A stretch of DNA of 59,518 bases, the filler included, from Nitrospinae bacterium RIFCSPLOWO2_12_FULL_45_22 (GTDB lineage: Bacteria; 2-12-FULL-45-22): NCBI GenBank assembly GCA_001803565.1. It is 6 parts of 6 records of this genome, joined end to end, with 100 filler letters (N's around TTAATTAATTAA, not from the genome) between each part and the next. Parts side by side here need not be neighbours in the genome. Positions count along the whole stretch, not along the records: positions 13,734 to 22,175 come from MHDQ01000086.1; 5 more parts are not named here. The stretch is one strand, 5' to 3'. The notes beneath the pieces were generated by a model that saw only the letters and a program-made list of their open reading frames with translations, was not told the origin of the DNA and searched no databases. Shown in pieces: positions 2,527 through 57,749 of this stretch (the stretch's first letter is position 1; each line of letters begins with the position of its first letter). The position numbers and the translations under genes are program-made.

Positions 2527-2640
2527 CGCTTACCCTCCTTATTCATCTTTATCCAATCGGGCTTATATCAAGAAATATGTGGATGCATCTTGAGAAATTA
2601 AAGGTCAACTGCAGCTATTCGCGAAAAGGTTACCAGAGTA

Positions 2641-5136
2641 TTATATTATTCCCTTAGTTTTCAATCCAGCCATTTCCTCAACGCTATATCCCAGAACTTC
2701 AGTATAAATTTCGTGGTTATGCTGTCCGAGTATCGGGGCACCCTTTATAATATACTCGGGCATCGAAGAAAATCTGGGAAAGACGCCCTGGACTTTCACA
2801 GGACCCATTACCGGGTCTTCAACCTCAATAATTGCTCTTCGGGCTTTATAGTGGGGGTCGTTAAAAATGTCCTTAACATTATTAATGGGACTAACAGGAA
2901 CTCCGGCATTAACCATTATTTCTACCACCTCGTCCAGATTATAACCCCCAACCCATTCTGCTATAAGAGCATGGAGCATATCGGCATTTTCTACCCTACC
3001 TTTCATGTCCTGATACTGAGGATCATTGGGTAAGTCTTCTCTTCCAATAACCCGGGAAAGCCTTTCGAAGAACTTATCGGTAGGGGCCTCAATAGCTACC
3101 CAGCATCCATCCTTGGTTTTAAAATGCCCTGCAGGGGCAATATTCATATAGTGGCTTCCGTTGCGGGACCTTATAATACCAAGCTTATCATACGCTACCA
3201 CGGTATATTCCAGAAGGCGAAATATAGACTCATAAAGGGAGATATCAACCCATTGCCCCGTTCCTGTTTCCTCTACATCTCTATAGTAAAGGGCAATCAT
3301 AGTAGCAAGGGCATTGGTTATCGCGGTTATATAATCGCCCAGGATCAAACCCGGCCGTATAGGTGGGGCATCAGGCTCGCCAGTCAGATATACAAAACCC
3401 CCTGCCCCTAAACCGACTATATCATACCCGGGTTTATATCTATAGGGACCGGTCTCACCAAAGGTTGTAACCCGGATCAAGATTATCCGGGGATTGATCT
3501 TCTGTAGTTCATCATAGCCAAGGTTCCACTTTTCTAATACCCCAGCACGAAAATCTGTTAATACGATATCTGATATTTTCACCAGACGCTTTACCATCTC
3601 TTGGCCTTCTTTGGACTTCAAATTCAAAGTGATGGATTTTTTACCCCGACCTTCCACCGTCCAAAAAAAACCAGAATCTTTATAGAATGGCCCTACATTA
3701 CGCAAGAGCATTTTCTTGCCCGTAGGCTCTTCGATCTTTATTACCTCGGCACCAAATTCCCCTAATATTGTGGTTCCTATAGGACCCGCGCCGGATGAGC
3801 CGAGGTCCAAAATCCTTATCCCTTCCAATGGCCGTCTTAATCCATTTTCTCCTTTGCCGAGCTCCTTATCTTTACTTATTACCCCTTTATTCGTTCCATT
3901 AGAAACTCTTTTATTATCTTTGGGGATAGGGAAGGGAATCACTATTTGTTCCCGAAAAAGGGTTTCTATCTGCTCTGGGCTATAACCTAAAAGGTCGCAG
4001 AATATTTCCTGATTATGACAACCTAAAGGTGGGCCGCTCCATCTCACTCGGCCTGGTGTTAAGGAGAAGTGGGGGCTTATCCCCTGCATCTTTGCCTTCC
4101 CGATATCTGGGTCTTCCACTTCAATAATATTCCCCCGGGCAATATAGTGGGCGTCAGAGAAGATATTGTCTATAGAATAAATAGGACCGACAGGGACTTC
4201 ATTTTCCTCCATAATACTGAGGACTTCGGCTAAGAGATGATCCTTTACCCAATCCCTTAGAATGTTATTAATGGCATCAGTATTTTTGCACCGCGACTCA
4301 TTATCTTTGAACCTGTCATCCACTATAAGCTCTTCCCGCCCTATTGCCTTAGCTAGCCTGGCAAAGATGTGGTCTATAGGCGCTCCTAGAAAAACCCAAT
4401 TCCCATCGCTGGTCTCAAAGGTATCTATAGGAGCAACGAATAAAAAGCGATTACCGGTCCGTTCTTTGACTAATCCCAGCTTATCGAAAAGAGGGACATT
4501 GTTTTCATATAGCCGAAACAGTGCCTCATACATCGCAACATCTATCCATTGTCCCATTCCGGTTTTTTTTCGATGATAGATGGCCAAAAGGGTTGCCAGG
4601 CCATTGAACAATCCCGCAATGTAAGCACCGGCACTCACGCCTGTCCTCAATGGGGCACCACCTTCATAGCCAGTAAGATATGAGAGGCCACTCATAGCCG
4701 AAGCTACCATATCATATCCTGGACGATCTCTATATGGTCCATCTTGGCCAAAGGCAGATACCGACACCAGAATTATCTTGGGATTAATCCTTTTAAGCTC
4801 CTCATATCCTAATTTCCAGGCATCTAAGGTGCCCGGCCGGAAGCTCTCTACCACTACATCAACGACGGCTACCAGGTCTCTGATGATGTTTTGTCCTGCG
4901 CTTTTACTTATATCTATGGTTATAGATTTTTTATTCCTCCCATCCACTACCCACCATAACGATTTGTCTTTATAGAAAGGTGGCAAATTCCTCAATATAT
5001 CGCCTTTTTGTGGCTGTTCAACTTTAATAACTTCTGCCCCGAAATCAGCTAAGATAGTGGGTCCAAAGCCACCTGCCAGCCCATTCCCCATTTCTAAGAC
5101 CCTTAATCCTGCTAAAGGTAATTTATTTGCCGTCAT
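2641..5136 (-). CDS. Tandem two-domain class III (CaiB/BaiF) CoA-transferase
   Basis: Two complete repeats of PL.G.R.L...GAEVIK.E...K(K)SIT...FG..GPY...PGYD; 831 aa. Confidence 0.92.
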   Translation of the reverse strand: MTANKLPLAGLRVLEMGNGLAGGFGPTILADFGAEVIKVEQPQKGDILRNLPPFYKDKSLWWVVDGRNKKSITIDISKSAGQNIIRDLVAVVDVVVESFRPGTLDAWKLGYEELKRINPKIILVSVSAFGQDGPYRDRPGYDMVASAMSGLSYLTGYEGGAPLRTGVSAGAYIAGLFNGLATLLAIYHRKKTGMGQWIDVAMYEALFRLYENNVPLFDKLGLVKERTGNRFLFVAPIDTFETSDGNWVFLGAPIDHIFARLAKAIGREELIVDDRFKDNESRCKNTDAINNILRDWVKDHLLAEVLSIMEENEVPVGPIYSIDNIFSDAHYIARGNIIEVEDPDIGKAKMQGISPHFSLTPGRVRWSGPPLGCHNQEIFCDLLGYSPEQIETLFREQIVIPFPIPKDNKRVSNGTNKGVISKDKELGKGENGLRRPLEGIRILDLGSSGAGPIGTTILGEFGAEVIKIEEPTGKKMLLRNVGPFYKDSGFFWTVEGRGKKSITLNLKSKEGQEMVKRLVKISDIVLTDFRAGVLEKWNLGYDELQKINPRIILIRVTTFGETGPYRYKPGYDIVGLGAGGFVYLTGEPDAPPIRPGLILGDYITAITNALATMIALYYRDVEETGTGQWVDISLYESIFRLLEYTVVAYDKLGIIRSRNGSHYMNIAPAGHFKTKDGCWVAIEAPTDKFFERLSRVIGREDLPNDPQYQDMKGRVENADMLHALIAEWVGGYNLDEVVEIMVNAGVPVSPINNVKDIFNDPHYKARRAIIEVEDPVMGPVKVQGVFPRFSSMPEYIIKGAPILGQHNHEIYTEVLGYSVEEMAGLKTKGII

Positions 5137-5316
5137 CTTATGGGCCTCCTCTTTTTAATAGCCAAATCAAGGTTATAAATGTTATAGATGAAAAAATCGC
5201 CAGATATGCGCAGGCAACAAGAAGATGAGGCGTATTATGTGGGCTATCAGGACTTGCCTGGATCAGGGAAGCTCAGCATCAGTTAGTCGCTAGAATTCTG
5301 AACCAATTCAGGCAGA

Positions 5317-5345
5317 AGAATAGTGTAATTCTTTTGGCCTGTCAA
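5317..5345 (-). promoter_or_regulatory. Candidate sigma70 promoter for the CoA-transferase/mutase operon
   Basis: Minus strand TTGACA-17 nt-TATTCT. Confidence 0.55.
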
Positions 5346-5493
5346 CAAATTTTTCTCTTGATATTTCCCAAAAATTTCAGAAAAATAGGACACCTTCTAT
5401 TTTCCCATTAATTTGTTGGCTAACAAAAATTTGAGTAGAAGGTGATGAAGAGATAAAGTGAATAGTCGGAACAATTTTGCGGGAGGGAGCTAA

Positions 5494-6657
5494 ATGACTG
5501 CTTATTTACAGGATATAAGGGTTATAGATTTCTCTATCATGTTACCCGGGCCTTATTGTAGTATGCTCTTAGGGGATCTAGGTGCCGAGGTAATAAAGAT
5601 TGAGCAACCACCGGACGGAGACCCTGCCAGGATAATGATCCCGGGTTATTTCGAAAGTCTGAACCGGAATAAAAAGAGCCTGACTTTGGATCTCAAATCC
5701 GTACCGGGTAAGGAGATATTCTGTCAGCTTATTCGCTCGGCCGATATTCTTTTGGAAGGATTCCGGGGTGGGGTACTTAAACGACTCGGCTTTGGTTATG
5801 ATCAACTGCTCCAGATAAACCCCAGGATAGTCTTTTGCTCTATAGCCGGTTATGGTCAGGATAGTCCTTGGGCGAGCAGACCCGGGCATGATATCAACTA
5901 CCAGGGGGTAGCAGGGGTATTAAGTCTGAGTGGGGCACCTGATGGCCCGCCAGATTATACCATCGGAGTAGCCGCAGCAGACCTTACTGCTAGCTTATTT
6001 GCCCTCTCTTCTATTATAGCGGCCCTGTTTCATAGAGAAAAGACCGGGAAGGGCAATTGCATTGAAGTAGCTATCGCGGATGTAGCAGTATCCTTGATGT
6101 CTAACCGGATAGGAGAATTTTTTGCCCGAGGAAAACCATCTAAGAGCCAGCAGATGGGTAGGGCTGCTGCTGGGGTCTTTGAGACTAAAGATGGTAAATA
6201 TATCACGCTGGCGGCTGCGGAAGAACATTTCTGGAAGAGGTTATGTCAGGTTCTTGATCTAAAGGAGCTGAGCCAGGACCAAAGATTCTCTTCCACCCTG
6301 AATAGGAGTAAGTATCGCAAAGAGATCAATGAGCGTTTAGCAGAAGTATTTCGGACCCGGGAACAAAAGGAATGGTCAAATATATTAGAAAAGGCCGATT
6401 TACCGTGGGGGCCGGTAAACACCATCGAAGACCTCCCCAATGACCCGTATATCTCGTCTCGGCAATTAGTCCTCCCTCAAGAACACCCTTCATTGGGGAA
6501 TATATGGCAGGTCGCCTTCCCGGTAAAATTCCTCTCGGAACAACCTGAGATTAAACACCCGGCCCCCTCTTTAGGGCAACATAACCGGGAAATCCTGAAT
6601 TCATTAGGATACAGAGATGAAGATATGGCAATCTTTAAAGAGGAAAAAATTATTTAG
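5494..6657 (+). CDS. Class III (CaiB/BaiF) CoA-transferase
   Basis: LPGPYC...LGAEVIKIE, NRNKKSL, GHDINY, AADL (catalytic Asp retained). Confidence 0.92.
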   Translation: MTAYLQDIRVIDFSIMLPGPYCSMLLGDLGAEVIKIEQPPDGDPARIMIPGYFESLNRNKKSLTLDLKSVPGKEIFCQLIRSADILLEGFRGGVLKRLGFGYDQLLQINPRIVFCSIAGYGQDSPWASRPGHDINYQGVAGVLSLSGAPDGPPDYTIGVAAADLTASLFALSSIIAALFHREKTGKGNCIEVAIADVAVSLMSNRIGEFFARGKPSKSQQMGRAAAGVFETKDGKYITLAAAEEHFWKRLCQVLDLKELSQDQRFSSTLNRSKYRKEINERLAEVFRTREQKEWSNILEKADLPWGPVNTIEDLPNDPYISSRQLVLPQEHPSLGNIWQVAFPVKFLSEQPEIKHPAPSLGQHNREILNSLGYRDEDMAIFKEEKII

Positions 6658-6687
6658 AGCGAGCAATAATTGCTTTTTTATCTTTAC

Positions 6688-7785
6688 CTAAGCCTCTGCA
6701 TCGACATAGCATGCCAGGCCCCTATCCAAAAACCGGAGACATTTATTGCAGGATATACAAGTTACCGGATCCTCCTGACCTTGCTCGATCTTGTTTACTA
6801 GATCGGGTTCCCGAATAAAAGGTCGGCATAATGATATAAAGTCAGCCTTTTTTTGTTGCAGTATTTCTTCCATGAGGGCTGGTGTCCGCATGCCGCCCAC
6901 AAGGATCAGAGGACAACGGATTTCAGATTTTATTTCTGGTGCGTATGGCAAGAAATACGCCTCCTGTTCTCTGCTCTTAATACCAGGGACGAGACATTTC
7001 CAGATAGATAATTCCAGTGTCCCACCGCTGATCTCAATGGCATCCATTCCGAGGTCAGATAGCAATCTGGCTGTCTTTCTTGTCTCTTCAAGGGTAAGAC
7101 CGCCTTCCACATAGTCATCTATATTCATCTTGATAAATAACGGATAATCCTGCCCTGCTACTTGCCTGATCCGTTTGTATACTTCGGTCACTAACCGCTG
7201 GCGGTTCTCAAAACTCCCGCCCCACTGATCGGTTCTCCGATTGGAATAGGGGGATAAGAACTGACTGATCAGGTAGCCATGAGCACCATGGAGCTGGACG
7301 CCATCGAATCCTGCCTCTCTTGCCCTTCGGGCGGCTTCTCCGAAAGCCTCTATAAGCTCCCATATCTGCTCATCCGTCATCTCTCTGGGGGTAATCCCGG
7401 TCCTTTTATAAGCGATAGGTGACGGTGCAATGGGTGGAAAATCTTGGGCACTATCGGCTTGCATCTGGCGGCCACAATGGAAAATTTGAGGAACTATTTT
7501 TGCTCCATAATTATGGGCCTGCTTGATAAGCCTCTGCCATCCGGGTATCATCTCATCCTTATGCAGACCAGGCATTTTGTAGCCTGAACGTCCACTCTCG
7601 TGCACAAAGGCCACTCCAGTAACAATCAGACCCACACCCCCTTTGGCTAATTCCGTATAGCGCGATACCAGGGCATCGGTTACCTGCCCATCGGCAGCGG
7701 CCAAGCTCTCGCCCGTTGCAGACCGCACAAAACGATTCTTTATCTCCATATTGCCTATCTTTCCTGGGGTAAATAATAGCTTCAT
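6688..7785 (-). CDS. NADH:flavin oxidoreductase (Old Yellow Enzyme family)
   Basis: KNRFVRSAT, GFDGVQLHGAHGYLISQFLSP, C-terminal CISCNKC. Confidence 0.92.
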   Translation of the reverse strand: MKLLFTPGKIGNMEIKNRFVRSATGESLAAADGQVTDALVSRYTELAKGGVGLIVTGVAFVHESGRSGYKMPGLHKDEMIPGWQRLIKQAHNYGAKIVPQIFHCGRQMQADSAQDFPPIAPSPIAYKRTGITPREMTDEQIWELIEAFGEAARRAREAGFDGVQLHGAHGYLISQFLSPYSNRRTDQWGGSFENRQRLVTEVYKRIRQVAGQDYPLFIKMNIDDYVEGGLTLEETRKTARLLSDLGMDAIEISGGTLELSIWKCLVPGIKSREQEAYFLPYAPEIKSEIRCPLILVGGMRTPALMEEILQQKKADFISLCRPFIREPDLVNKIEQGQEDPVTCISCNKCLRFLDRGLACYVDAEA

Positions 7786-13733: not shown

Positions 13734-14315
13734 AATTTGGAGGTGTGGCATCCTGCCTACTTTCACGCCGTATGCCCAGGCAAGGACACGGTGCCTGGCA
13801 GAGATAAATGGCTGCAGGCGCTGAAGTGGGCGGTGGAGATCTTTAACAAGGGCCGTGTGGGGAGCGTGTTTGTGGCTGGGATTGAGCCCATGGAGTATAC
13901 ATTGGAAGGTATGGAATACTGCTGTTCCATCGGTGTGTGGCCTGCGTGTACCGTGTGGAGTCCAGCGGTCGGTTCCAAGTTTGCGGGCCATCGCCCACCC
14001 AATATTGACTGGTATCGGGAGCTGAATGAGAAATACGTTGACCTGCTGTTCAAATATGGCTTTGCCAGCCCCGAGATCTTGGATGATGAGGCAATGGTGG
14101 CTAATTGTTTCGTCTGCCGCAGGTGCAACGTAAACTTTGTGTATCAGGATGAAATAATGCGCCGAAAGCTGCTGGATGACCCAAATTGGAGGGGATGGCG
14201 GGAATCGCAGCCACTCAACACCCTCTCCACAAAAGGGGAACGGATAGCATTTTCCGAGGCCGGGGGGGCGACGGCTCTCTCTGACATACCTCTTGAGGCT
14301 GACAGGAGAGCCTAA
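13734..14315 (+). CDS. C-terminal part of a radical SAM protein (biotin-synthase-related type), 5' truncated
   Basis: EVW...F...CPGK...W...L..AVEIF..G.V.S.FVAGIE; the CxxxCxxC motif is not in the visible part. Confidence 0.55.
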   Translation, partial: NLEVWHPAYFHAVCPGKDTVPGRDKWLQALKWAVEIFNKGRVGSVFVAGIEPMEYTLEGMEYCCSIGVWPACTVWSPAVGSKFAGHRPPNIDWYRELNEKYVDLLFKYGFASPEILDDEAMVANCFVCRRCNVNFVYQDEIMRRKLLDDPNWRGWRESQPLNTLSTKGERIAFSEAGGATALSDIPLEADRRA

Positions 14316-14665
14316 GATTCAGGGCCGATTGCGAGGACTCTGTGTGCTGGGGGGAGGGAGCTATCGGTCAAGGAGGCATTGCTTACGCCTGAGGCTGTGT
14401 AGCTTGGGAAGCGGGGTGCTCCCGGGGCAGGGGTGAGCCCGCCGCAGCCTTGTCGGTTATGTGTGGCTTGCTCCACCACCTGCTCATCCGTGGCGGCTCA
14501 CCGAGCCAGGTCAACAATCTCCTTGGCGAGGCCAATGCCTCAGTGATACATCGGCCGCCCTGGCTTCCCCAAGGGTTCATTGTAACCCAGTGGTTGACTG
14601 GGAGTATTCGAATTTGACTACAGAGGCCTTTTAGAAATAGGGACTAATTTTCCCGGCCCTCTGTT

Positions 14666-15146
14666 GAGAGGGTTTCAGGGAAGGGTTTTCCTCTCATTTG
14701 TCGAATTAGTGCAGATGAATTCGTGGACGGGGGTAACCCTGACTGAAACTAGAGAGATAGCGGCCCTACTTATGGAGAAAGGGGTGGATATTATCAGTGT
14801 CTCTGGAGGGGTGGCCGAATCCAGGCCTCGCCGGGATGAGGCTATGAAACAGGGCAGGTTCTTGGAGCTGGCTAAAGGGATTAAAGAAGTGGTGCAGATA
14901 CCGGTCATAGCCGTAGGTAAGATCATGAGTTTAGAGCAAGCTGAAAGGGTCTTAGAGGAGGGCAGGGCTGACCTAGTGGCTATTTGCCGGGCCTTAATTG
15001 CTGATCCAGAATTAATTACCAAAACCCTGGAAAATAGGGTGGAAGAGATCAGGAAATGTATCGAATGCGGTGAATGCGTAGCTACCCTGATGAAAGACGA
15101 TATGCGGATGCGCTGTTCAGTGAATAAAGAGTGGGGGCGATTTTAG
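14666..15146 (+). pseudogene. 5'-truncated, frameshifted OYE-family flavin oxidoreductase
   Basis: GKGFPLICRISADEFVDGG in one frame, shift at the G-run near 14730 into VTLTETREIA...IPVIAVGKI...RALIADP...CIECGEC. Confidence 0.75.
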
Positions 15147-15191
15147 TTTTCCCACATAATTTGAGGTTATTAGAGGAAGGAGGGACTAATC

Positions 15192-16379
15192 ATGCCAGCT
15201 AAATTGGAAAAACTCTTTGAGCCCATAAAGATAAAAAATTTGCCCATTGAGAATCGTATTTGCTATGCCCCTACAGGCAAGGCCCATTGTACAGAAGATG
15301 GTCATCAGGTAACTGATCAAGCAATCTGCTATTATGTAGCCCGGGCAAAAGGTGGGACTGGCTTGTTGATAGTGGAGGCATGCATAGCGCTGCCCAAATA
15401 TGCCTGGCTAGGAAGAATATTGGGCTGCTGGGATGATAGTCAATTGGCTGGCCTAAGGAATTTAGCTGAGGCAATCCATGCAGCCGGGGCTAAGGCAGTG
15501 GTGCAAGTAACTTTAGGCTTAGGCAGTCAGGCTATGTTCCCTATTAAGGGAGAGGTAGTTGCCCCGTCAGATGTCCCTTCCCGTATTGGTAAAGGGACAG
15601 CTCCCAGAGGGTTAGGGTTTATGGATGGGGTTGTGGGGACTACTCCTAGACCATTGACCAAGGAGGAGATAGTAGAATTAGAAGATGCCTATGTGGCTGG
15701 GGCAGAGAGGATAAAGAAGGCGGGTTTTGATGGTATAGAGGTTCATGGCTGCCACGGCTATCTCATCGCTGAATTCATCTCCCCTTATAGTAATAAGCGC
15801 CAGGATGAATATGGTGGTTCTTTTGAAAATAGATTAAGATTAGCAAAAAACCTCTTACACAAGACCCGAGAGAAAGTTGGGGCTGATTTCATTATCGGGT
15901 TTAGGATGAGTGGTGATGAGCATATCGAGGGAGGGTATAACATAGAAGAGGGTCAAAGAATTGCCAAGGAATTAGAAAAGGCGGGGGTAGATTATATCCA
16001 TATGTCTTCTGGCCGATATGAGGTATGGAACCGGATGTTTCCAGATGAAGAGGGGACTATGCTGGATGATACCAAGGCTATAAAGCAGGCCGTAGGTATA
16101 CCGGTAATATGCCCTAATATCCATAATCCGTTAACGGGCGAAAAGGCCCTCCAAAAAGGGATAGTCGATATGATATCCCTCTCGCGGGGCTTGATCGCTG
16201 ACCCGGCATGGGCTAATAAGGCACGGGCAGGTAAATTAGAGGAAATAAGGCGATGTATCCTGTGCAATACTTGTCTTAAGACTGTATTCGGTGGTTTCAG
16301 TATCCGCTGCGCAGTTAACCCAGAAGTTGGCTGGGAGAGGTTCATTCCGGAATACTTTCCACCCATCAAAGGCAGGTAA
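15192..16379 (+). CDS. NADH:flavin oxidoreductase (OYE family) with Fe-S motif
   Basis: ARAKGGTGL, GFDGIEVHGCHGYL, CILCNTC...CAVNP. Confidence 0.92.
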   Translation: MPAKLEKLFEPIKIKNLPIENRICYAPTGKAHCTEDGHQVTDQAICYYVARAKGGTGLLIVEACIALPKYAWLGRILGCWDDSQLAGLRNLAEAIHAAGAKAVVQVTLGLGSQAMFPIKGEVVAPSDVPSRIGKGTAPRGLGFMDGVVGTTPRPLTKEEIVELEDAYVAGAERIKKAGFDGIEVHGCHGYLIAEFISPYSNKRQDEYGGSFENRLRLAKNLLHKTREKVGADFIIGFRMSGDEHIEGGYNIEEGQRIAKELEKAGVDYIHMSSGRYEVWNRMFPDEEGTMLDDTKAIKQAVGIPVICPNIHNPLTGEKALQKGIVDMISLSRGLIADPAWANKARAGKLEEIRRCILCNTCLKTVFGGFSIRCAVNPEVGWERFIPEYFPPIKGR

Positions 16380-16461
16380 TTCTTTTCGAGGGGGATAGAG
16401 GGACGTCCCATCAATTCTTTGGGGTTTTTGTAAGGGGCTCAACTCCCATTCATTGTATTAT

Positions 16462-16525
16462 GTAGCGGAGACCTTTAGGTCTCCAAAAGTGGAAGGCACC
16501 CAAAGGGTACCCGGCCTTCCGCTAC
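16462..16525. repeat. GTAG-type REP-like palindromic element
   Basis: GTAGCGGAGACCTTTAGGTCTCC ... TTCCGCTAC inverted ends; related CTCCGCTAC at about 52396-52404 and GTAGTGGTCGAGCTTGCTCGAC at about 26360. Confidence 0.5.
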
Positions 16526-16572
16526 TATTGTTAATGGGTTTCTGACAGAAAATAGCCACACCCGAGAAAAAT

Positions 16573-17403
16573 ATGCGCCAGATAGCTATCTATGGTAAAG
16601 GTGGGATAGGGAAATCTACCATCACTTCCAATCTTTCTATCGCATTAGCCCAGAGGAAGTATAAAGTAATTCAGATAGGCTGCGATCCTAAAAGGGACTC
16701 TACCCGGATGTTGCTGTATGGCCAGCTCAAGCCCACTGTACTGGATACCTTACGCCAGGTAGGAGAGGTGGGGCTAACGCTTCAGATGATTATGCATGAA
16801 GGGATATATGGGATAAAATGTATTGAGTGTGGCGGCCCAGAGCCGGGTGTTGGTTGTGCTGGTAGGGGTATTATTACTACCTTTAAACTGCTGGAGCAGA
16901 TGGATGCCTTTAAGAATCAGCCAGATTTCATTCTATACGATGTCCTGGGTGATGTGGTCTGTGGTGGCTTTGCCCTGCCCATTCGGGAAGGCTATGCCCA
17001 GGAGATATATCTGGTTGCTTCGGGGGAGTTTATGTCCCTCTATGCGGCCAATAATATCTGCCAGGGCCTGGTAAAATTTGCCCGCAGGGGTGAAGGGAGA
17101 TTAGCCGGTATCATTGGCAATTCCAGAAGGGTAAGGAACGAAGAATTGTTACTAAAAACATTTGCCCAGAGAATCGGTACCACCCTGGTAGAATTTATTC
17201 CCTGGGATGATAAGGTAAGGGAAGCAGAAATATACCGGAAGCCAGTACTGGATTATGATCCTCAAGGGACGTTTTCCCACGCAATGCAGCAGCTAACTGA
17301 CAGGATCTTGACCAATAAGGATTTGGTTATACCTAAACCTTTGTCGCTGGAAGAACTAGAATCCATGATACAAGAGGGAGAGATAAGGCATGGAACTTTC
17401 TGA
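16573..17403 (+). CDS. Nitrogenase iron-protein-like ATPase (NifH/CfbC-like, probably group IV)
   Basis: YGKGGIGKST, GCDPKRDST, GGPEPGVGCAGRG, DVLGDVVCGGF, EFMSLYAANNI. Confidence 0.93.
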   Translation: MRQIAIYGKGGIGKSTITSNLSIALAQRKYKVIQIGCDPKRDSTRMLLYGQLKPTVLDTLRQVGEVGLTLQMIMHEGIYGIKCIECGGPEPGVGCAGRGIITTFKLLEQMDAFKNQPDFILYDVLGDVVCGGFALPIREGYAQEIYLVASGEFMSLYAANNICQGLVKFARRGEGRLAGIIGNSRRVRNEELLLKTFAQRIGTTLVEFIPWDDKVREAEIYRKPVLDYDPQGTFSHAMQQLTDRILTNKDLVIPKPLSLEELESMIQEGEIRHGTF

Positions 17404-17986
17404 GGCCATAAAGACCCGCCGCAGTATAAGAAAGTTTAAGGATATCCCCGTGCCCAAAGAGGTGCTGGAAGAGGTTATTGAGTTAGCCCTTTGGGCCCCA
17501 TCTAACTATAATATGCAAGGCTGGTACTTTGTAGTAGTTCAGGGTGAGAAAAAAGACCGCATAATAGCTGCTATGGCTAGACATGCCGAGACCTGGGTGA
17601 CTAATGTAAAAAATCTTTTCCCAGAAAAGATGGTAAAGATTATCCAGGAATTCTTCGCTACTATGGGTGGGGCCCCGGTAATAATCTTCGTTTACACCGA
17701 TAAGACCGAGCAACTGCTAGAGTACATGCCCTTGGATATGGAACCAGGGTATCCATCGGCTTGTGCTGCCATACAGAATCTATTGTTAGCTGCCCATGAT
17801 AGAGGATTGGGGGCATGTTGGGTTGCGGCCTGTTGCATCATTGAAGATGAGATCAACGAGATTCTGGGTATAGAAGAGGTAAGGAATAAGGTAATGGTAG
17901 CAGGCATCCCCCTCGGTTATCCCGATCAAAGACCACCCGCTCCTCCCCGGCAAGGAAACAAGGTACAATGGCTCGGCTTTGAATAG
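17390..17986 (+). CDS. Nitroreductase family flavoprotein
   Basis: IKTRRSIRKF, APSNYNMQGW, AIQNLLLAAHDRGLGACW, LGYP; overlaps the nifH-like gene by 14 bp. Confidence 0.92.
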   Translation: MELSEAIKTRRSIRKFKDIPVPKEVLEEVIELALWAPSNYNMQGWYFVVVQGEKKDRIIAAMARHAETWVTNVKNLFPEKMVKIIQEFFATMGGAPVIIFVYTDKTEQLLEYMPLDMEPGYPSACAAIQNLLLAAHDRGLGACWVAACCIIEDEINEILGIEEVRNKVMVAGIPLGYPDQRPPAPPRQGNKVQWLGFE

Positions 17987-18074
17987 TATCACATTAAAAG
18001 TAATACTTTCCTTATATGCAACCCTTATGCTATGATATGCAGAAACCTAATCGTAGAGCAAGGAGGGTACAACT

Positions 18075-20087
18075 ATGGCTAATCAATTCCAGTATTTATT
18101 TACTCCCCTGAAGATCGGTCCAGTGACCGTCAAGAACCGAATAATGATTACGGCCCATGCCACGGCCTTTGGCGATACTAATCCCGTATGTGGTGAGCCG
18201 GGGTTTTATGGGGAGCGGTATGCCCATTATTTAGCCGAGCGGGCCAAAGGAGGGGCGGGTCTGATCTATTTTGGTCAGGTAAATATCCATCCTACCAGCG
18301 CCTATGAGCTAGTAAATGCCTCTATCGGCTATGACCGGGCAGCTATCCCGGGCTATAAACGAGCTACTGAGATGATCCACCAGTATGGTGCCAAGGTATT
18401 TATCCAGTTCATGCATTCGGGTATGAACAACTCTGGTGAAGTCAGCCGCTTGTCGGTCTGGGCGCCATCCAATGTACCCGGCCCTGGTGCTATTGGCCGC
18501 GAGACACCCAAGGCTATGGAGCTAGAGGATATTCAGGAAGTGATCGAGTATTATGGCCGCTGTGCCAGCTATGCCAAAGAAGGTGGGTTTGATGGCATCG
18601 AGATCCATTCTACCCATAGCTACCTCGGACAACAGTTCCTCTCTCCTTTATATAATAAGCGCACGGATAAGTATGGCGGTTCATTAGAAAATCGTATGCG
18701 CTTCCTCTTAGAGGCATTGGAGCGGGTGCGGAAAGAGACGGGTAGAGATATGGCATTAGGATTGCGTATACCGGCTGATGAACTCGTACCGGGTGGCTTG
18801 ACCCTGGATGATATGAAGATAATAGCCCGCGAACTAGAAGCTACCGGCCTGGTTGATTATCTTAATGTGAGTGTAGGGACTATACATGCTATCCATATGG
18901 TTATCGGCCCGATGTATATCCCCCATGCCTATCTGATGCCTTTAATTGCTGGTATCAAAGAGGCGGTCAAGGATATCCCTATATTCTGCATTGGCAGGAT
19001 TGTTGATCCAATGGAAGCCGAGAAAATATTAGCTGATGGCCATGCTGATATGATTGGCATGACCCGTGCCCATATTGCTGACCCAGAGATCGGTAACAAG
19101 GCCCGTGAAGGCCGGGTAGATGATATCCGCAACTGCATCGGCTGCTGCCAGGGTTGTATCGGCCATATCATATCCTGGCATCCCATTACTTGTGTCCAAA
19201 ACCCCATAGTGGGGAAAGAAAAAGAGTGGGGAATAGGTACTATCAAGCGGGCTGAGAAGCGGAAGAAAGTTATGGTGATCGGTGGAGGTCCCGGAGGCCT
19301 GGAAGCCGCCCGGGTAGCAGCCGAAAGGGGGCACGCTGTAACCCTGTATGAGAAAGCGTCAGAGCTGGGTGGTCAAATCAATCTGGCGGCTAAACTACCT
19401 GGTCGAGATGAGATGGATGGCATAGTTAGGTATCGGAATATCCAGATGGGAAAGCTGGGCGTAAAGGTTATCCTAAACACAGAAGTAACTCCAGCATTAG
19501 TGGCAAAAGAGGCCCCGGATGCCGTGGTAGTAGCCACTGGGTCTAGGCCCATCCGCACCGGGTTCCAGGGATTTACCTGTGCTGAGATACCAGGCTATCA
19601 ACAAGATTACGTGGTGGTTGCAGAAGATATCATAAAGAACCAGGTGAAAGTAGGCAATAAGGTAGTGATACTGGATGAAGACTTGCATATTAAGGCCCTG
19701 GCGTTAGCCGATCTCTTATCAGAGCAAGGTAAACAAGTAGAAATCATAACCCGGGCCCTATATGTTGGAACCGAAGTAGATTTTGTGACTCTAGCCGCTA
19801 TTTATCAGCGCATATGCAGCAAAGGCGTAACGCTAACCCCCAATAGCTTTATCAAAGAGATCCTGCCCGGTGGTAAGGTAGTGGCTTTTAGTATCATTAC
19901 CCAGGAAGAGCGAAAGCTAGAAGGAATAGATACCCTGGTACTGGTGACCGGTAACCAACCCGAAGAGGGGCTCTATTTTGCCTTGAAAGGAAAGGTGAAA
20001 GAACTTTATCGGGTAGGGGACTGTGTGGCCCCCAGGAAGGCCGACCGGGCTATCTATGATGGCCATCAGGTAGGGAGGATGCTCTAG
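18075..20087 (+). CDS. FadH/OYE-family oxidoreductase with FMN barrel, [4Fe-4S] motif and FAD/NAD domain
   Basis: ERAKGGAGL, GFDGIEIHSTHSY, CIGCCQGC...CVQNP, VIGGGPGGLEAA, VGDCVAPR. Confidence 0.92.
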   Translation: MANQFQYLFTPLKIGPVTVKNRIMITAHATAFGDTNPVCGEPGFYGERYAHYLAERAKGGAGLIYFGQVNIHPTSAYELVNASIGYDRAAIPGYKRATEMIHQYGAKVFIQFMHSGMNNSGEVSRLSVWAPSNVPGPGAIGRETPKAMELEDIQEVIEYYGRCASYAKEGGFDGIEIHSTHSYLGQQFLSPLYNKRTDKYGGSLENRMRFLLEALERVRKETGRDMALGLRIPADELVPGGLTLDDMKIIARELEATGLVDYLNVSVGTIHAIHMVIGPMYIPHAYLMPLIAGIKEAVKDIPIFCIGRIVDPMEAEKILADGHADMIGMTRAHIADPEIGNKAREGRVDDIRNCIGCCQGCIGHIISWHPITCVQNPIVGKEKEWGIGTIKRAEKRKKVMVIGGGPGGLEAARVAAERGHAVTLYEKASELGGQINLAAKLPGRDEMDGIVRYRNIQMGKLGVKVILNTEVTPALVAKEAPDAVVVATGSRPIRTGFQGFTCAEIPGYQQDYVVVAEDIIKNQVKVGNKVVILDEDLHIKALALADLLSEQGKQVEIITRALYVGTEVDFVTLAAIYQRICSKGVTLTPNSFIKEILPGGKVVAFSIITQEERKLEGIDTLVLVTGNQPEEGLYFALKGKVKELYRVGDCVAPRKADRAIYDGHQVGRML

Positions 20088-20091
20088 TCTT

Positions 20092-20916
20092 TTGAAGGGG
20101 CAATATATAAAAGTTAATGGGTTAGAGACCTATTATATAACGCAGGGCAAAGGTTATCCCCTTATTCTCATCCACGGTCTTCCCGGTTCTACTTATACCT
20201 GGCGGAATAGTATATTGCCCCTCGCGCAGCATTTCCAGGTATATGCCTTAGACCTGAAGGGCTTCGGTTATTCAGACAAACCCGCCGGGAATTATTCCCT
20301 GCTGGCCCATGCAGAATTGATTAAGGATTTTATGGAGGGCCTTAATATCCCATCAGCGGCCTTGATAGGTAGTTCATACGGTGGTGGGGTAGGCATGACT
20401 ATGGCCTTAAAATATCCAGAACGAGCTAATCAGTTGGTCCTGATCGGCAGCATTGGATACCCTTTCGGGAGATGGATAGTGGACTTGTCCTGGCTTAACC
20501 AGTTGCAAGAGCTTGCTTTCTATGCCTTACCCTTTATCCCACCTCTAGCTAAATTGTTGATCAGAAAAGCCTATGAGATGGCCTATTATGACCCTGCCCT
20601 CATCAGTAAAGAGATGATTGAGGAGGGCTATAGATTAATCTGCCTAAAGGGGGTGGCCGGGTCTTACTTTGCCACTGTTCGGGGCCTGGATGAGCAATGG
20701 CTAGGAGAAAATATAAAATACCTAACCAAGCCTACACTGATAATTGCTGGTGCCGACGATAAGATGGTTCCTCGCTGGGTAGCAGAGAGATTGCATTCTG
20801 AGATCAAAGGTTCCAGGCTAGAAATTATCCCGCAATGTGGCCATATACCCCAGGAAGAAAAACCCCTCATAACCAACAATCTGATTATTGAATTTTTGCA
20901 GCGCCAAACATCCTAA
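20092..20916 (+). CDS. Alpha/beta hydrolase (Ser nucleophile)
   Basis: LIHG, DLKGFGYS, GSSYGG, GHIPQEE. Confidence 0.88.
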   Translation: MKGQYIKVNGLETYYITQGKGYPLILIHGLPGSTYTWRNSILPLAQHFQVYALDLKGFGYSDKPAGNYSLLAHAELIKDFMEGLNIPSAALIGSSYGGGVGMTMALKYPERANQLVLIGSIGYPFGRWIVDLSWLNQLQELAFYALPFIPPLAKLLIRKAYEMAYYDPALISKEMIEEGYRLICLKGVAGSYFATVRGLDEQWLGENIKYLTKPTLIIAGADDKMVPRWVAERLHSEIKGSRLEIIPQCGHIPQEEKPLITNNLIIEFLQRQTS

Positions 20917-20983
20917 CTACGGTTCTGCTTTAGTATCCATATTAGACCTTGCTGTGGGTGGGAGTTCCTCCAACTCTGCGTCT

Positions 20984-21035
20984 GGTGAAATTTTGAAAAG
21001 GATGATACTTGGTTTTAGAAATTTTTGGGGAAACT
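20984..21035 (+). repeat. 52-bp dispersed repeat, copy 1
   Basis: 50/52 identical to 23839-23890. Confidence 0.85.
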
Positions 21036-21130
21036 CCGGATATTGACGCAGCGGACGAGAGCTTGTTCTTGTTATTACGGTCTCCCATACAAAAGGTCAA
21101 GCATTAGGGGGGAAAAATAATAAATTTATT

Positions 21131-21176
21131 TTGACAGCCAGAGGATATTTTTGTATTATTAACTTCAAGTTGAAGT
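21131..21176 (+). promoter_or_regulatory. Sigma70 promoter with adjacent palindromic operator candidate
   Basis: TTGACA(21131)-17 nt-TATTAT(21154), then ACTTCAA-G-TTGAAGT (21162-21176). Confidence 0.6.
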
Positions 21177-21268
21177 GGCCATCAGGTGTTTGTAACCAGA
21201 TGATAAAACCCTTCCAGCTTATCAAGCCTGATCGAATGAACAATTTGTTTGAAAGGAGGTATCCCGCC

Positions 21269-22175
21269 ATGGAAGCTACTTTAAAAAAGATTTTCGCTGT
21301 GGTAACTGACCCGTATACTTCTATTGTCCAGTGGAAAGAGCAGAGCCAAAAAAAGGTAGTCGGCTGTATGCCGATGCACTTGCCGGAGGAGTTGGTGCAT
21401 GCCGCTGGGCTGCAGCCGGTAATATTTTGGCGCAGTAATGAATCCATAACCCTGGGCCATTCTCATGTGTATTCCTTCAACTGTGGATTGACCCGCAGTA
21501 TCGTGGATGATGCCGTGAAGGGAAAGCTAACCTTTCTGGATGGTATGATCTTTTATGACATCTGCCTCCAGGGTAGAGAATTGCCTTTTCTCATTAATAG
21601 GAACGCCCGCCCGGCCTTCCTTGAGGTTATGTTTATCCCCGGTATGGTGGTAGGACCCGTCTATAAAGACTTTTTCATGGAAAACCTGGAGCGCTTGAAG
21701 ACTAGCCTGGAGGGCTTTAGTGGACAAAAGATTACAGATGACGCCCTTAAAAAAAGTATCGGGCTATATAACAAACATCGGGATCTTTTAAGAGACTTGT
21801 ATGACCTGAGGAGAAAGAACCCAGGTATTCTCAAAACCCGGGAAATGGTGGCTATTGTTCAATCCGGCATGTTAATGCCAAAGGAAGAGCATTGTCAGTT
21901 ATTAGAGACCCTATTGAATGATCTCAAACAGCGCAAAGCCCTACCAGATAAGAAGCCTCGTGTAGTACTGGTCGGTTGCCTCTGCCAGACACCCCATTTT
22001 GATATCCTGGACTTGATTGAAGAAGAAGGGGCGGTAGTAGTGGATGATGATATCTATGTGGGTTCCAGATATCTGGCCCGGGATGTAGAGCTAGATGGTA
22101 ACCCGATAGAGGCCCTGGCTAAACGCTACCTGCGGCGGATACCACCCTGCCCTACCAAGGTGGATTGGGTAACTG
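21269..22175 (+). CDS. 2-hydroxyacyl-CoA dehydratase / benzoyl-CoA reductase subunit (HgdB/BcrC-like), 3' truncated
   Basis: VVGCMP...PEELVHAAG, SFNCG, DICLQ, IEEEGAVVVDDD...GSRY, PCP; AGGAGGT RBS before ATG 21269. Confidence 0.85.
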
Positions 22176-23838: not shown

Positions 23839-23890
23839 GGTGAAATTTTGAAAAGGATGATACTTGGTTGTAGAAATTTTTGGGAAAACT
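23839..23890 (+). repeat. 52-bp dispersed repeat, copy 2
   Basis: 50/52 identical to 20984-21035. Confidence 0.85.
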
Positions 23891-37598: not shown

Positions 37599-38777
37599 AT
37601 GGTCAGAGCGCTAGATGGTATTAAGGTACTGGATTTATCCCGGTTATTACCCGGTCCATACTGTAGTATGATGCTGGCCGATTTAGGGGCTGAGGTCTTG
37701 AAAGTCGAGGACCCGGCCCTGGGGGACTATGCCCGGCAGCGGGAGCCCCAGGTAGCTGGGGTAGGAGGTATGTTCCAAATACTTAATAGGAATAAGAAGA
37801 GCCTTACGCTTAACTTGAAGCACCCAGAAGGGGTTGAGATTTTTTATAAGCTGACTAAGGGAGCAGACGTTATCCTGGAGGGTTTTCGCCCCGGGGTGAT
37901 GGACCGCCTGGGCGTGGGCTATGAAAAGATCAGGCAGATAAACCCCAGGATCATCTACTGCTCCTTAACAGGCTATGGCCAGGATGGGCCATATAAGGAT
38001 CTGGTGGGCCATGATATCAATTACCTGAGTTATGGTGGAGTACTGGGTATCAGTGGGCCGAATGATGGTCCCCCTATGAGTGCCGGCGTGCAGATTGCCG
38101 ATATTGGTGGGGGGGGTATGATGGCGGTTATTGGAATTCTCACGGCGATTATAGCCAGGGAAAAACTGGGTAAAGGACAGTTTATTGATATATCCATGCT
38201 GGATGGAGTGATTTCCTGGATGGCCAATCATGCCGGGGATTATTTTGCCTCCGGCAAAGTGCCTAAAAAAGGCGAGGGCCGGCTGGGGGGTGGGCTGGCT
38301 TGCTATACAGTTTATGAGACCAGGGATGGTAAATATATCTCTATAGGCGCCCTGGAGGAAAAATTCTGGGCAAATCTATGCCGTATCCTGGGCAAGGAAG
38401 AGTTTATTGCCGGGCAATATGACTATGGCCCTAAACAGGAGGAGATCAAGGCTGAACTAAGCAAGCTCTTTCTTACCAAGGAACGCGATGAATGGGTAAG
38501 GCTCTTGAACCAGGTAGATATCTGTGCGAGCCCGGTTTATAACCTGGATGAGGTATTTAATGACCCTCAGGTAAGATATCGCAATATGGTATTAGAGATA
38601 GAGCACCCAACAGCAGGTAAGATCAGACAAATAAATAACCCCCTCAAACTTTCTGAAACACCGCCAGCCATCAAAACCCCTGCACCCCTTCTGGGTGAGC
38701 ATACTGATCAGATTCTTACCGAGCTAGGTTATTCTCTGGAAAAGATCAGTAGGCTCCAGCAGCAAAAAGTCATTTGA
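37599..38777 (+). CDS. Class III CoA-transferase / alpha-methylacyl-CoA racemase-like
   Basis: LSRLLPGPYC, NRNKKS, EGFRPGVMDRLG, GHDINY, QIADIGGG. Confidence 0.92.
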   Translation: MVRALDGIKVLDLSRLLPGPYCSMMLADLGAEVLKVEDPALGDYARQREPQVAGVGGMFQILNRNKKSLTLNLKHPEGVEIFYKLTKGADVILEGFRPGVMDRLGVGYEKIRQINPRIIYCSLTGYGQDGPYKDLVGHDINYLSYGGVLGISGPNDGPPMSAGVQIADIGGGGMMAVIGILTAIIAREKLGKGQFIDISMLDGVISWMANHAGDYFASGKVPKKGEGRLGGGLACYTVYETRDGKYISIGALEEKFWANLCRILGKEEFIAGQYDYGPKQEEIKAELSKLFLTKERDEWVRLLNQVDICASPVYNLDEVFNDPQVRYRNMVLEIEHPTAGKIRQINNPLKLSETPPAIKTPAPLLGEHTDQILTELGYSLEKISRLQQQKVI

Positions 38778-52305: not shown

Positions 52306-52485
52306 ATCCTTATGATAACTTCGGCCTACCAATGAGTTACAATTTCCTTCATGTGCCTATGTATTTTATCAGCCTTTCTCAGCCCTCGAAGGAGACTCCG
52401 CTACATAATTCTTCTGTATCCTTTGAATTTATGGATGAACTTAGGTAAAATAACAAACTAAATAATAACATAGTAAGGAGGCAAG

Positions 52486-57747: not shown

Positions 57748-57749
57748 GG

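What the first reader, a model, noticed from the sequence alone, without database searches (positions are those of the whole stretch)
16573..17986. Orphan nitrogenase Fe-protein homologue translationally coupled to a nitroreductase
Seen: an intact NifH-type P-loop, switch regions and both [4Fe-4S] cysteines; its stop overlaps the nitroreductase start by 14 bp; neighbours are OYE reductases, a hydrolase, a radical SAM fragment and an HgdB/BcrC-like gene; no NifD/K-, CfbD-, BchN/B- or MarDK-like gene is on this 8.4-kb contig. Established: Fe-proteins are ATP-driven low-potential electron donors usually encoded beside their catalytic partner; EFMSLYAANN departs from the canonical NifH EMMA(M/L)YAANN. 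Inference: a group IV-like Fe protein possibly repurposed as electron donor to flavoenzymes or an HgdB-family reductase in organic catabolism. It would also be a false positive in nifH-based diazotrophy surveys.
Basis: partly seen in the sequence, partly recalled or inferred. Interest (0 to 1): 0.8.

Follow-up and report, generated by a model that had tools for sequence, protein, structure and literature searches.

The report
Nitrogenase-type iron protein without its partner genes
An intact relative of the nitrogenase iron protein sits, without the usual catalytic partner genes, overlapping a nitroreductase gene inside a cluster of ring- and enoyl-CoA-reducing enzymes; what it delivers electrons to is still unknown.

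Summary
Window 16573-17403 encodes a complete NifH-family Fe protein (P-loop, both switches, both cluster cysteines). It scores below the curated cut-offs for NifH and for CfbC. Its stop overlaps the start of a nitroreductase-family gene (17390-17986) by 14 nt. No NifD/K-type ORF lies on the 8.4-kb contig or in the rest of the 59.5-kb window.

The protein is an isolated long branch. Its own lineage is 90-100% identical; everything else is 61% or less. It groups with an uncharacterised nitrogenase-like clade. One member of that clade (61% identical) sits next to very divergent D- and K-like genes.

Substitutions within the lineage avoid family-conserved columns (3 of 114 against 42 of 162), so the gene is under selection and is not a relic. 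Of 80 relatives with comparable flanks, 80 have a D/K-like gene nearby. None of 185 other loci carries a nitroreductase, OYE or BcrC-like gene.

The neighbours resemble an anaerobic aryl/enoyl-CoA reduction cluster. The whole genome could not be searched, so "orphan" is shown only for the contig. The repurposing idea is untested and is not conserved beyond this one lineage. Interest is moderate.

The parts
16573..17403 (+). NifH-family Fe protein (276 aa, P0001): an ATP-binding [4Fe-4S] reductase component of an uncharacterised nitrogenase-like lineage
   Evidence: PF00142 at 346 bits; TIGR01287 at 366.7, below the 394.35 cut-off; NF033200 at 355.7, below 402. Best solved relative is 6nzj, a nitrogenase iron protein, at 332 bits. 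Long-branch clade in the trees. Under purifying selection.
17390..17986 (+). Nitroreductase-family FMN protein (198 aa, P0002); its start overlaps the nifH-like stop by 14 nt
   Evidence: PF00881 at 122 bits. The RRSIR motif and 22 invariant columns are shared with 72 homologues. Best solved relatives are putative nitroreductases 3gfa and 4dn2, and a BluB-like protein, at 60-81 bits.
17374..17403 (+). Coupling region: purine-rich GAGGGAGAG (17374-17382), the ATG at 17390 and the nifH-like TGA at 17401-17403
   Evidence: Read directly from the sequence.
16459..16563 (+). Multi-copy structured intergenic repeat ending 9 nt before the nifH-like start; public assemblies break here
   Evidence: Summed contig depth is about 90 here, against 4-6 to the left and 12-16 to the right, in two runs. 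Loose ends with other flanks occur at 16459, 16497, 16530 and 16563. The fold energy is -40.7 kcal/mol with z = -2.9. No Rfam match.
15192..16379 (+). Short OYE-type flavoprotein (395 aa, P0279) with a CxxCxxC...C motif and no FAD/NAD(P)H domain
   Evidence: PF00724 at 234 bits. Cys355, 358, 361 and 373. It aligns to positions 1-366 of 645 of TIGR03997.
14664..15146 (+). Truncated OYE remnant: only the last third of the barrel plus a Cys motif
   Evidence: PF00724 profile positions 231-340 of 342 only. The upstream frames show no missing N-terminal part.
13737..14315 (+). C-terminal fragment of a radical SAM protein, cut by the contig start
   Evidence: NF045502 at 148.9 bits, profile positions 252-357 of 357.
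18075..20087 (+). FadH/OYE Fe-S flavoenzyme (670 aa, P0280); 2-naphthoyl-CoA reductase is its closest solved relative
   Evidence: PF00724 plus Pyr_redox_2. TIGR03997 at 737.6, below the 793 cut-off. 6qkg (NCR) at 314 bits is the best solved match. CxxCxxxC...C motif at 354-373.
20092..20916 (+). Alpha/beta-fold hydrolase (274 aa)
   Evidence: PF00561 at 133 bits; below every NCBIfam cut-off.
21131..22175 (+). BcrC/MbdN/HgdB-like subunit (HGD-D family), cut by the contig end
   Evidence: PF06050 at 203 bits. Best solved match is the 3-methylbenzoyl-CoA reductase gamma subunit MbdN, 9g87_B, at 147 bits.

Best explanation
The gene encodes a working Fe protein: a homodimeric, nucleotide-switched [4Fe-4S] one-electron donor. 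It belongs to an uncharacterised nitrogenase-like (group-IV-type) lineage. It is neither a nitrogenase NifH nor a CfbC.

In this organism it has been separated from NifD/K-type genes. It is now expressed from an operon-like array with a nitroreductase and aryl/enoyl-CoA-reducing Fe-S flavoenzymes.

Shown: family membership, intact motifs, selection within the lineage, the gene order, and the absence of D/K genes on the contig and in the window.

Inferred: it still docks on a D/K-type catalytic component encoded elsewhere in the unseen genome (a 'distant partner' arrangement). On this reading the overlap with the nitroreductase reflects operon packing or shared regulation, not a physical partnership.
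For: - Family and motifs are established.
- Every Fe protein with a described function in the 2026 review works on a D/K-type partner: NifDK, DPOR, COR, CfbD, MarDK and ISR (PMC13474568; sections 2.4 and 7 and passages read).
- In the careful tree the query clade (100/100) joins P0011 (97/72), then P0104 (90/81), then the P0010 group (86/84).
- P0010 is the Fe protein of L186. There it is followed by two Oxidored_nitro genes (219 and 251 bits) that fall far below all curated cut-offs. Their best solved relatives are NifEN and MarD/MarK at 95-103 bits.
- The partner-facing residues are the same as in relatives that have D/K genes: the cluster loop GPEPGVGCAGRG, Arg98 (the Arg100 equivalent), Arg138 and Tyr141 (Y in 204 of 290).
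- Separate H and DK loci are known. These include nifH copies with nifDK elsewhere on the genome (PMC8597730) and R. rubrum nflDK genes described beside marBHDK (PMC13474568).
- Only about 60 kb of the genome was visible.
Against: - 80 of 80 relatives with at least 2.8 kb upstream and 4.77 kb downstream have a D/K-like ORF inside that span; this locus has none.
- The gene is tightly packed with redox enzymes of other chemistry.
- The stem of the clade is very long (1.07 changes per site).
- The lineage has replaced residues that are 95-99% conserved among 290 relatives: R211W, Q216R, T224P, Q234F, A235S, Y238M/V, A242T. The BchL/X-like rows carry Y211 and R216 and differ at 234, 235 and 238 as well.
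- No D/K gene was found in the 59.5-kb window.
Confidence: 0.45

Rival explanations
1. Recruited donor. The Fe protein has switched partner. It now injects low-potential electrons, driven by nucleotide hydrolysis, into an enzyme of this cluster. Candidates are the short OYE protein that has a [4Fe-4S] motif but no FAD/NAD(P)H entry domain, the NCR-like 670-aa enzyme, the overlapping nitroreductase, and the BcrC/MbdN-like reductase.
For: - The array is operon-like: a 14-nt overlap with the nitroreductase, an 88-nt gap to the FadH-like gene and a 4-nt gap to the hydrolase.
- nifH, the nitroreductase and the start of the FadH-like gene lie on single public contigs in two runs.
- The same order is inferred in strain variants from shared contig lengths of 20,123, 25,623 and 1,696 bp.
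- P0279 has a Cys motif but no flavin-reductase domain.
- OYE-family type III aryl-CoA reductases need a low-potential donor. They worked in vitro only with reduced methyl viologen, and a ferredoxin is only presumed in vivo (PMC13365417, passages read).
- No D/K gene lies nearby although 80 of 80 comparable relatives have one.
- The stem branch is long and several conserved positions are changed.
Against: - The two literature searches found no paper linking NifH with naphthoyl-CoA reductase or with a nitroreductase gene cluster (0 papers each).
- The pairing is confined to one lineage with NifH identity of 90% or more.
- Nitroreductase relatives of 75-89% exist, but no NifH of 62-89% identity was found.
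- No nitroreductase, OYE, FadH or HgdB homologue occurs in the 185 other NifH-bearing loci.
- The nitroreductase shows no iron-sulfur Cys motif.
- The 670-aa enzyme has its own FAD/NAD(P)H-type domain.
- Long branches also occur in relatives that have D/K neighbours, such as L072 and L177.
Confidence: 0.25
2. Partner-independent or accessory role. The Fe protein acts alone or as a maturation or insertion factor, for example in cluster or cofactor handling for the Fe-S enzymes nearby. It is not a dedicated electron donor.
For: The protein is intact and under selection. No partner is visible. The idea that NifH has maturation roles is recalled from general knowledge and was not tested here.
Against: Nothing in the locus points to cofactor assembly. 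The only radical SAM gene on the contig is a cut C-terminal fragment. Its linkage to nifH is also doubtful, because depth changes at the repeat and its GC3 is 0.63 against 0.49.
Confidence: 0.1
3. Relic. This is a leftover of a broken H-D-K cluster that is no longer used.
For: A truncated OYE remnant and a multi-copy repeat lie just upstream. These are signs of rearrangement.
Against: - The frame is open in all 11 lineage variants.
- Among these variants, differences fall at 3 of 114 family-conserved columns against 42 of 162 variable ones (odds ratio 0.077, p = 3.5e-8).
- Base composition matches the neighbours.
Confidence: 0.05

Closest known systems
Nitrogenase Fe protein NifH (TIGR01287)
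   Same: [quoted passage not shown] It is 58-59% identical to proteins that pass the NifH cut-off (P0017, P0032). It scores 332 bits to the solved chain 6nzj.
   Different: It scores below the curated cut-off (366.7 against 394.35). It lies outside the clade holding the cut-off-passing rows. No nifD/K, nifE/N or nifB-type gene is nearby.
Fe proteins of group IV nitrogenase-like systems (MarH of methylthio-alkane reductase, ISR, and uncharacterised clades D and E)
   Same: It is a non-nitrogenase Fe protein. Its nearest relative with context (P0010, on L186) precedes D/K-like genes whose best solved relatives include MarD and MarK.
   Different: MarH itself (9fmg_D) is a more distant match, at 245 bits against 332 for NifH. 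No D/K gene lies beside it. The subclade (A to F) could not be assigned, because those labels rest on D sequences and no reference set was at hand.
CfbC (F430 biosynthesis, NF033200)
   Same: Similar size and motifs. The score is close to that for NifH (355.7 bits).
   Different: It is below the 402 cut-off. There is no CfbD-type gene. The other contigs of the window carry OmpA, AsmA-like and MutS genes, so the context is bacterial rather than methanogen. It is separate from the Methanomicrobiales clade that passes the CfbC cut-off.
'Pseudo-nifH' / T2-T3 nifH (Mise et al. 2021, PMC8597730)
   Same: It is a nifH homologue without nifD/K in its neighbourhood, from an anoxic habitat. It would be counted in nifH surveys.
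   Different: That category is defined by annotation and is mostly Clostridia and methanogens (abstract and passages). Here the absence of any Oxidored_nitro-type gene was checked by profile. The context (nitroreductase plus aryl-CoA-reductase-like genes) is specific to this locus.
ATP-driven electron activators of benzoyl-CoA reductases and 2-hydroxyacyl-CoA dehydratases (BcrAD/HgdC type)
   Same: They work alike in principle: nucleotide hydrolysis lowers the potential of a bridging [4Fe-4S] cluster in a homodimer. This is recalled knowledge. A BcrC/MbdN-like gene lies 3.7 kb downstream.
   Different: The fold family is unrelated (ASKHA rather than the NifH P-loop family). No such activator was seen because the contig ends inside the BcrC-like gene. 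This is analogy only, not membership.

Membership tests
NifH/BchL Fe-protein superfamily (PF00142) | Profile match over the full domain | tested here: met
   346 bits, profile positions 1-269 of 271.
NifH/BchL Fe-protein superfamily (PF00142) | Walker A, switch I, switch II and the two [4Fe-4S] cysteines (Cys97 and Cys132 equivalents) | tested here: met
   GKGGIGKS, CDPKRDSTR, DVLGDVVCGGF, Cys95 and Cys130. These columns are invariant or nearly so in 290 relatives. The defining residues are named in PMC13474568 section 7.
NifH/BchL Fe-protein superfamily (PF00142) | Works with a NifD/K-type (PF00148) catalytic partner | tested here: inconclusive
   None on the contig or in the 59.5-kb window. 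No whole genome is held.
Nitrogenase NifH proper (TIGR01287) | Score at or above the curated cut-off | tested here: not met
   366.7 against 394.35.
Nitrogenase NifH proper (TIGR01287) | Placement in the clade of cut-off-passing NifH sequences, with adjacent nifDK | tested here: not met
   In the quick tree a 100* branch unites 30 rows, including P0017 and P0032 (both pass the cut-off), without the query. In the careful tree the query groups first with P0011, P0104 and the P0010 group. There is no nifDK nearby.
CfbC (NF033200) | Score at or above the cut-off, with a CfbD partner | tested here: not met
   355.7 against 402. No methan_mark_13 or Oxidored_nitro gene is nearby.
BchL/ChlL and BchX | Score at or above the cut-off | tested here: not met
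   222.1 against 345.15 and 191.7 against 331.2.
Group VI NflH | About 40% identity to NifH (PMC13474568 section 7) | tested here: not met
   58-59% identical to cut-off-passing NifH proteins.
Group IV nitrogenase-like Fe protein, uncharacterised clade | Groups with Fe proteins that are encoded beside divergent, non-nitrogenase D/K genes | tested here: met
   It is sister to P0011 and P0104 and then the P0010 group, with supports 97/72, 90/81 and 86/84. P0010 is the L186 Fe protein, which has D/K-like neighbours below all cut-offs. Context is known for only this one member.
Group IV nitrogenase-like Fe protein, uncharacterised clade | Own D/K genes assignable to a lettered subclade | not testable with these tools
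   No D/K gene was found for this organism, and no labelled reference set of D sequences was available.
Nitroreductase family (PF00881), for the overlapping gene | Profile match and the FMN-phosphate motif | tested here: met
   122 bits over positions 1-167 of 167. R10, R11 and R14 are invariant in alignment A2. Below every NCBIfam equivalog cut-off, with BluB at 73.7 against 150.
Type III aryl-CoA reductase (NCR-like), for the 670-aa neighbour | OYE domain plus a [4Fe-4S] motif plus an FAD domain, with a low-potential donor | tested here: inconclusive
   The domains and the Cys motif are present, and NCR is the best solved match at 314 bits. Substrate and donor were not tested. Histamine and trimethylamine dehydrogenases score nearly as well (292-297 bits).

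The most novel reading that the evidence does not exclude
A nitrogenase-type Fe protein has left the NifD/K world. It serves as the nucleotide-driven, very-low-potential electron donor for iron-sulfur flavoenzymes of anaerobic ring or enoyl-CoA reduction: the FAD-less short OYE, the NCR-like enzyme, or the overlapping nitroreductase. This would be the first Fe protein with a partner outside the D/K family. [quoted passage not shown]
Probability: 0.22. Interest if true: 0.9.

Novelty: new variant of a known kind. Interest (0 to 1): 0.45.

Why it matters
Every Fe protein with a described function in the review read here delivers electrons to a NifD/K-type partner. How Fe proteins choose partners is listed as an open question (PMC13474568, conclusions passages).

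This Fe protein is selectively maintained. It has lost the otherwise constant D/K neighbourhood and sits in a reductive CoA-ester cluster. It is therefore a concrete, clonable test case.

Either its partner lies elsewhere, which would be an example of an NFL system split across the genome. Or it has a new kind of partner, which would widen the reach of ATP-driven electron transfer.

On the practical side, it is one more nifH-like sequence from soil and groundwater metagenomes that does not indicate nitrogen fixation.

Tried and rejected
- Complex prediction of two Fe-protein chains, one 4Fe-4S cluster and two nitroreductase chains: score 0.01, below the 0.32 mark. Verdict: no answer.
- Expression: no RNA holder was listed. 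Two runs labelled metatranscriptomic ('probably DNA') covered only four short pieces in the FadH-like and BcrC-like genes.
- Whole-genome search for PF00148 and PF00142: no genome is held.
As a result the 20,123-bp, 25,623-bp, 47,470-bp, 94,544-bp and 318,684-bp contigs that hold this locus or its relatives could not be read.
- Taxon narrowing with the MutS fragment over 401 Chloroflexota genomes: the listed matches were a flat 48-55% identical, with no close relative. That tally includes the unpublished genomes G232, G043, G150, G178 and G349, and nothing else was taken from them. The Chloroflexota guess came from names on FadH hits and is not supported. The other contigs carry OmpA, AsmA-like and PD40 genes. 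A 75% nitroreductase relative is named Nitrospinota.
- EFMSLYAANN as a diagnostic motif: rejected.
- Loss of a docking lysine (the REGYAQ segment): rejected, since Y is the majority state (204 of 290).
- Fusions as a clue to the partner: of 10 long representatives scanned, 8 are NifH plus Oxidored_nitro and 2 have unassigned N-terminal extensions. None holds a nitroreductase or HGD-D domain.
- Rfam on the contig: no match.
- The changed positions 211-242: I recall this segment lining the adenosine pocket of A. vinelandii NifH. I could not confirm this from papers, and it was not tested.
- Recent transfer judged by composition: not seen.
- Supplementary files of papers were not consulted.
Full report
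**What is there**

The window is a string of contigs separated by N spacers. The finding lies on window 13734-22175, which is identical to an 8,442-bp metagenome contig (L081). All genes of interest are on the + strand:

| Window coordinates | Gene product |
|---|---|
| 13737-14315 | Radical SAM C-terminal fragment |
| 14664-15146 | OYE remnant: only the last third of the barrel plus a Cys motif |
| 15192-16379 | 395-aa OYE protein with CxxCxxC...C and no FAD/NAD(P)H domain |
| 16573-17403 | NifH-like protein |
| 17390-17986 | Nitroreductase-family protein |
| 18075-20087 | 670-aa FadH/OYE Fe-S flavoenzyme |
| 20092-20916 | Alpha/beta hydrolase |
| 21131 to contig end | HGD-D family gene |

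The nifH-like stop (TGA, 17401-17403) lies 14 nt inside the nitroreductase frame (ATG at 17390). A purine-rich GAGGGAGAG lies 8-16 nt upstream of that ATG. The nitroreductase N-terminus matches that of 72 homologues, so the overlap is not an artefact of start choice.

**The Fe protein itself**

It matches PF00142 end to end at 346 bits. It carries the P-loop, switch I, switch II, both cluster cysteines and the Arg100 equivalent. All of these are invariant or nearly so among 290 relatives. The best solved relatives are nitrogenase iron proteins: 6nzj at 332 bits, against MarH (9fmg_D) at 245 bits and BchL/ChlL at about 153 bits. The PDB codes for MAR come from PMC13474568.

It nevertheless misses the curated cut-offs for NifH (366.7 against 394.35) and CfbC (355.7 against 402), and those for BchL and BchX by a wide margin.

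**Relatives and phylogeny**

The search covered 5.8 billion protein clusters. The protein has relatives of 92-100% identity (its own lineage) and then nothing above 61%. Cluster look-ups added lineage members that differ at up to 28 positions.

A scan of one genome per species (185,579 species) found no relative above 57%. The metagenome scan returned only the contig itself above that level.

FastTree (345 rows), IQ-TREE quick and IQ-TREE careful (62 rows each) agree on two points:
- The lineage is a single clade (100/100) on a very long stem of 1.07 changes per site.
- It joins P0011 (97/72), then P0104 (90/81), then the P0010 group (86/84).

The place of the long-branched Anaerolineae row L072 changed between the quick and the careful tree.

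Five proteins of this neighbourhood were scored against the nifH model. Four fall below the cut-off (query, P0011, P0023, P0040) and one is marginal at 396.7. P0017 and P0032, in the large other clade, pass at 461 and 469.

P0010 is identical to the Fe protein of L186, an 8.6-kb contig of a Chloroflexota-sample genome. There it is followed by two Oxidored_nitro genes. These score far below every NifD/K/E/N, Bch or CfbD cut-off. Their best solved relatives are NifEN and MarD/MarK at 95-103 bits.

So the query belongs to an uncharacterised nitrogenase-like group. In the one member whose context could be read, that group has the usual H-D-K layout.

**How unusual is the context?**

- 185 other NifH-like loci were fetched. 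Of these, 167 have at least one D/K-like ORF within 6 kb. The other 18 have less than 1.5 kb of downstream flank.
- Counting only loci with at least as much flank as this contig offers, 80 of 80 have a D/K-like ORF in the same span. This locus has none.
- These loci are a biased set, mostly Methanomicrobiales, Bathyarchaeia and Chloroflexales, and 160 of the 185 sequences are distinct.
- None of them encodes a homologue of the nitroreductase, the OYE proteins, the FadH-like enzyme or the HGD-D protein.
- No D/K-like ORF occurs anywhere in the 59.5-kb window.

**Is the gene alive?**

Eleven lineage variants all keep the frame. Their differences fall at 45 positions: 3 of 114 family-conserved columns and 42 of 162 variable ones (odds ratio 0.077, p = 3.5e-8). 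Base composition matches the neighbours and the other contigs. A relic is therefore unlikely.

Relative to 290 relatives, the lineage differs at 13 of 114 conserved columns. The median for those relatives is 1 and the 95th percentile is 8. However, the sister sequences differ at 7-15 columns, so the whole group is divergent.

The changes particular to this lineage cluster at positions 211-242: R211W, Q216R, T224P, Q234F, A235S, Y238M/V and A242T. The BchL/X-like rows carry Y211 and R216 and also depart from the NifH consensus at 234, 235 and 238. The changes therefore speak for divergence rather than for loss of function.

My recollection is that this segment lines the adenosine pocket. I could not confirm this.

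The partner-facing cluster loop, Arg98, Arg138 and Tyr141 are unchanged.

**The neighbourhood**

- The 670-aa enzyme's best solved relative is 2-naphthoyl-CoA reductase at 314 bits. Histamine and trimethylamine dehydrogenases are close behind.
- The cut HGD-D gene is closest to the gamma subunit of 3-methylbenzoyl-CoA reductase.
- With two further OYE-type genes and a hydrolase, this resembles a cluster for anaerobic reduction of aryl- or enoyl-CoA esters.
- OYE-family type III aryl-CoA reductases need a low-potential donor. That donor is only presumed to be a ferredoxin in cells (PMC13365417, passages read).
- The nitroreductase belongs to a family widespread in anaerobes at 44-54% identity. 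It matches no NCBIfam equivalog.

**Assembly caveats**

Public contigs of two runs were laid on the stretch.
- Depth is 4-6 to the left of 16272 and 12-16 to the right of 16564.
- Depth is about 90 over 16272-16553 and about 50 over 20784-21065.
- Contig breaks and alternative flanks occur at 16459-16563.

A multi-copy, structured repeat therefore sits directly upstream of nifH. This makes the linkage of the left-hand genes (radical SAM fragment, OYE remnant, short OYE) to nifH less certain. Five proteins of the locus, including the short OYE and the Fe protein, do share a longest contig of exactly 20,123 bp. That suggests an independent assembly with the same join, but this is an inference.

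From nifH rightward the order is backed by single contigs in both runs.

A 52-nt repeat in the hydrolase/BcrC-like spacer recurs at 23839-23890 on the next contig of the window.

**Conservation of the pairing**

Shared contig lengths indicate nifH plus nitroreductase in strain variants: 25,623 bp for P0550 with P0002, and 1,696 bp for P0552 with P0277. These are inferences from equal lengths.

Beyond the lineage, the nitroreductase has relatives of 89, 85 and 75%, the last named from a Nitrospinota MAG. The FadH-like enzyme has relatives of 89, 87, 74 and 73%. No Fe protein of 62-89% identity turned up.

Either the pairing is young or the intermediates are unsampled. Their contigs could not be read.

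**Verdict**

| Reading | Probability |
|---|---|
| Functional group-IV-type Fe protein separated from a D/K partner encoded elsewhere | 0.45 |
| Recruited to a new partner in this cluster | about 0.25 |
| Accessory or partner-independent role | 0.1 |
| Relic | 0.05 |
| Unassigned | about 0.15 |

That nifH-like genes without nifDK mislead diazotroph surveys is already published (PMC8597730). Two literature searches found no paper linking NifH with a nitroreductase gene cluster or with naphthoyl-CoA reductase. These searches cover only the open-access library.

Noticed in passing
window 16459-16563: A structured intergenic element of about 105 nt (fold -40.7 kcal/mol, z = -2.9) has roughly 6-fold higher summed depth than its flanks in two metagenome runs, and it has several alternative flanks. 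It is a multi-copy repeat of unknown kind with no Rfam match. It has no second copy in the window.
   Followed up: partly
window 20984-21035 and 23839-23890: A 52-nt intergenic repeat, 96% identical, is shared between this contig and the next contig of the window. The first copy lies in a high-depth bin where public contigs break.
   Followed up: partly
window 13734-16271 versus 16564-22175: Contig depth differs about threefold across the repeat upstream of nifH in two runs. The radical SAM fragment also has a higher GC3 (0.63 against about 0.49). The left end of the contig may belong to a minority strain or may be a chimeric join.
   Followed up: partly
proteins P0132-P0269 (representative search): Many proteins of about 660-840 aa are an N-terminal NifH domain fused to an Oxidored_nitro (D-like) domain; 8 of 10 scanned showed this. 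There are also tandem double and triple NifH domains (P0122-P0128). I did not check whether these are true fusions or merged gene calls.
   Followed up: partly
window 56773-59517: hemB (ALAD) is followed 3 nt later by a radical SAM/SPASM protein that passes the AhbD heme b synthase cut-off (553.6 against 500). A corrinoid-protein gene (MtgC/MtbC-like, below cut-offs) follows, cut by the window end. This points to the siroheme-dependent heme pathway.
   Followed up: partly
window 48853-52332 (-) and 47470-48384 (-): An SNF2-type helicase resembles DISARM DrmD (335 bits, below the 610 cut-off). It sits next to a DUF1156 protein. This is a possible anti-phage defence locus.
   Followed up: no
window 859-7785 and 37599-38777: There are several family III CoA-transferases, including an 831-aa tandem-domain one. 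There is also a methylmalonyl-CoA-mutase-type subunit and another 365-aa OYE. The genome appears rich in CoA-ester and ene-reductase genes.
   Followed up: no
L186 (G304:C554) 3166-6621 (-): An H-D-K cluster in a Chloroflexota-sample genome has D and K proteins that fall far below all curated cut-offs. D has only 5 cysteines and K has 7. This is an uncharacterised nitrogenase-like system worth its own look.
   Followed up: partly
window 40322-40497, 40665-40761, 42327-42487 and other N runs: Internal N runs of odd lengths (17-176) lie inside contigs, apart from the regular 44-12-44 spacers. MutS is split over two ORFs across one of them (44128-45240 and 45328-46764).
   Followed up: no
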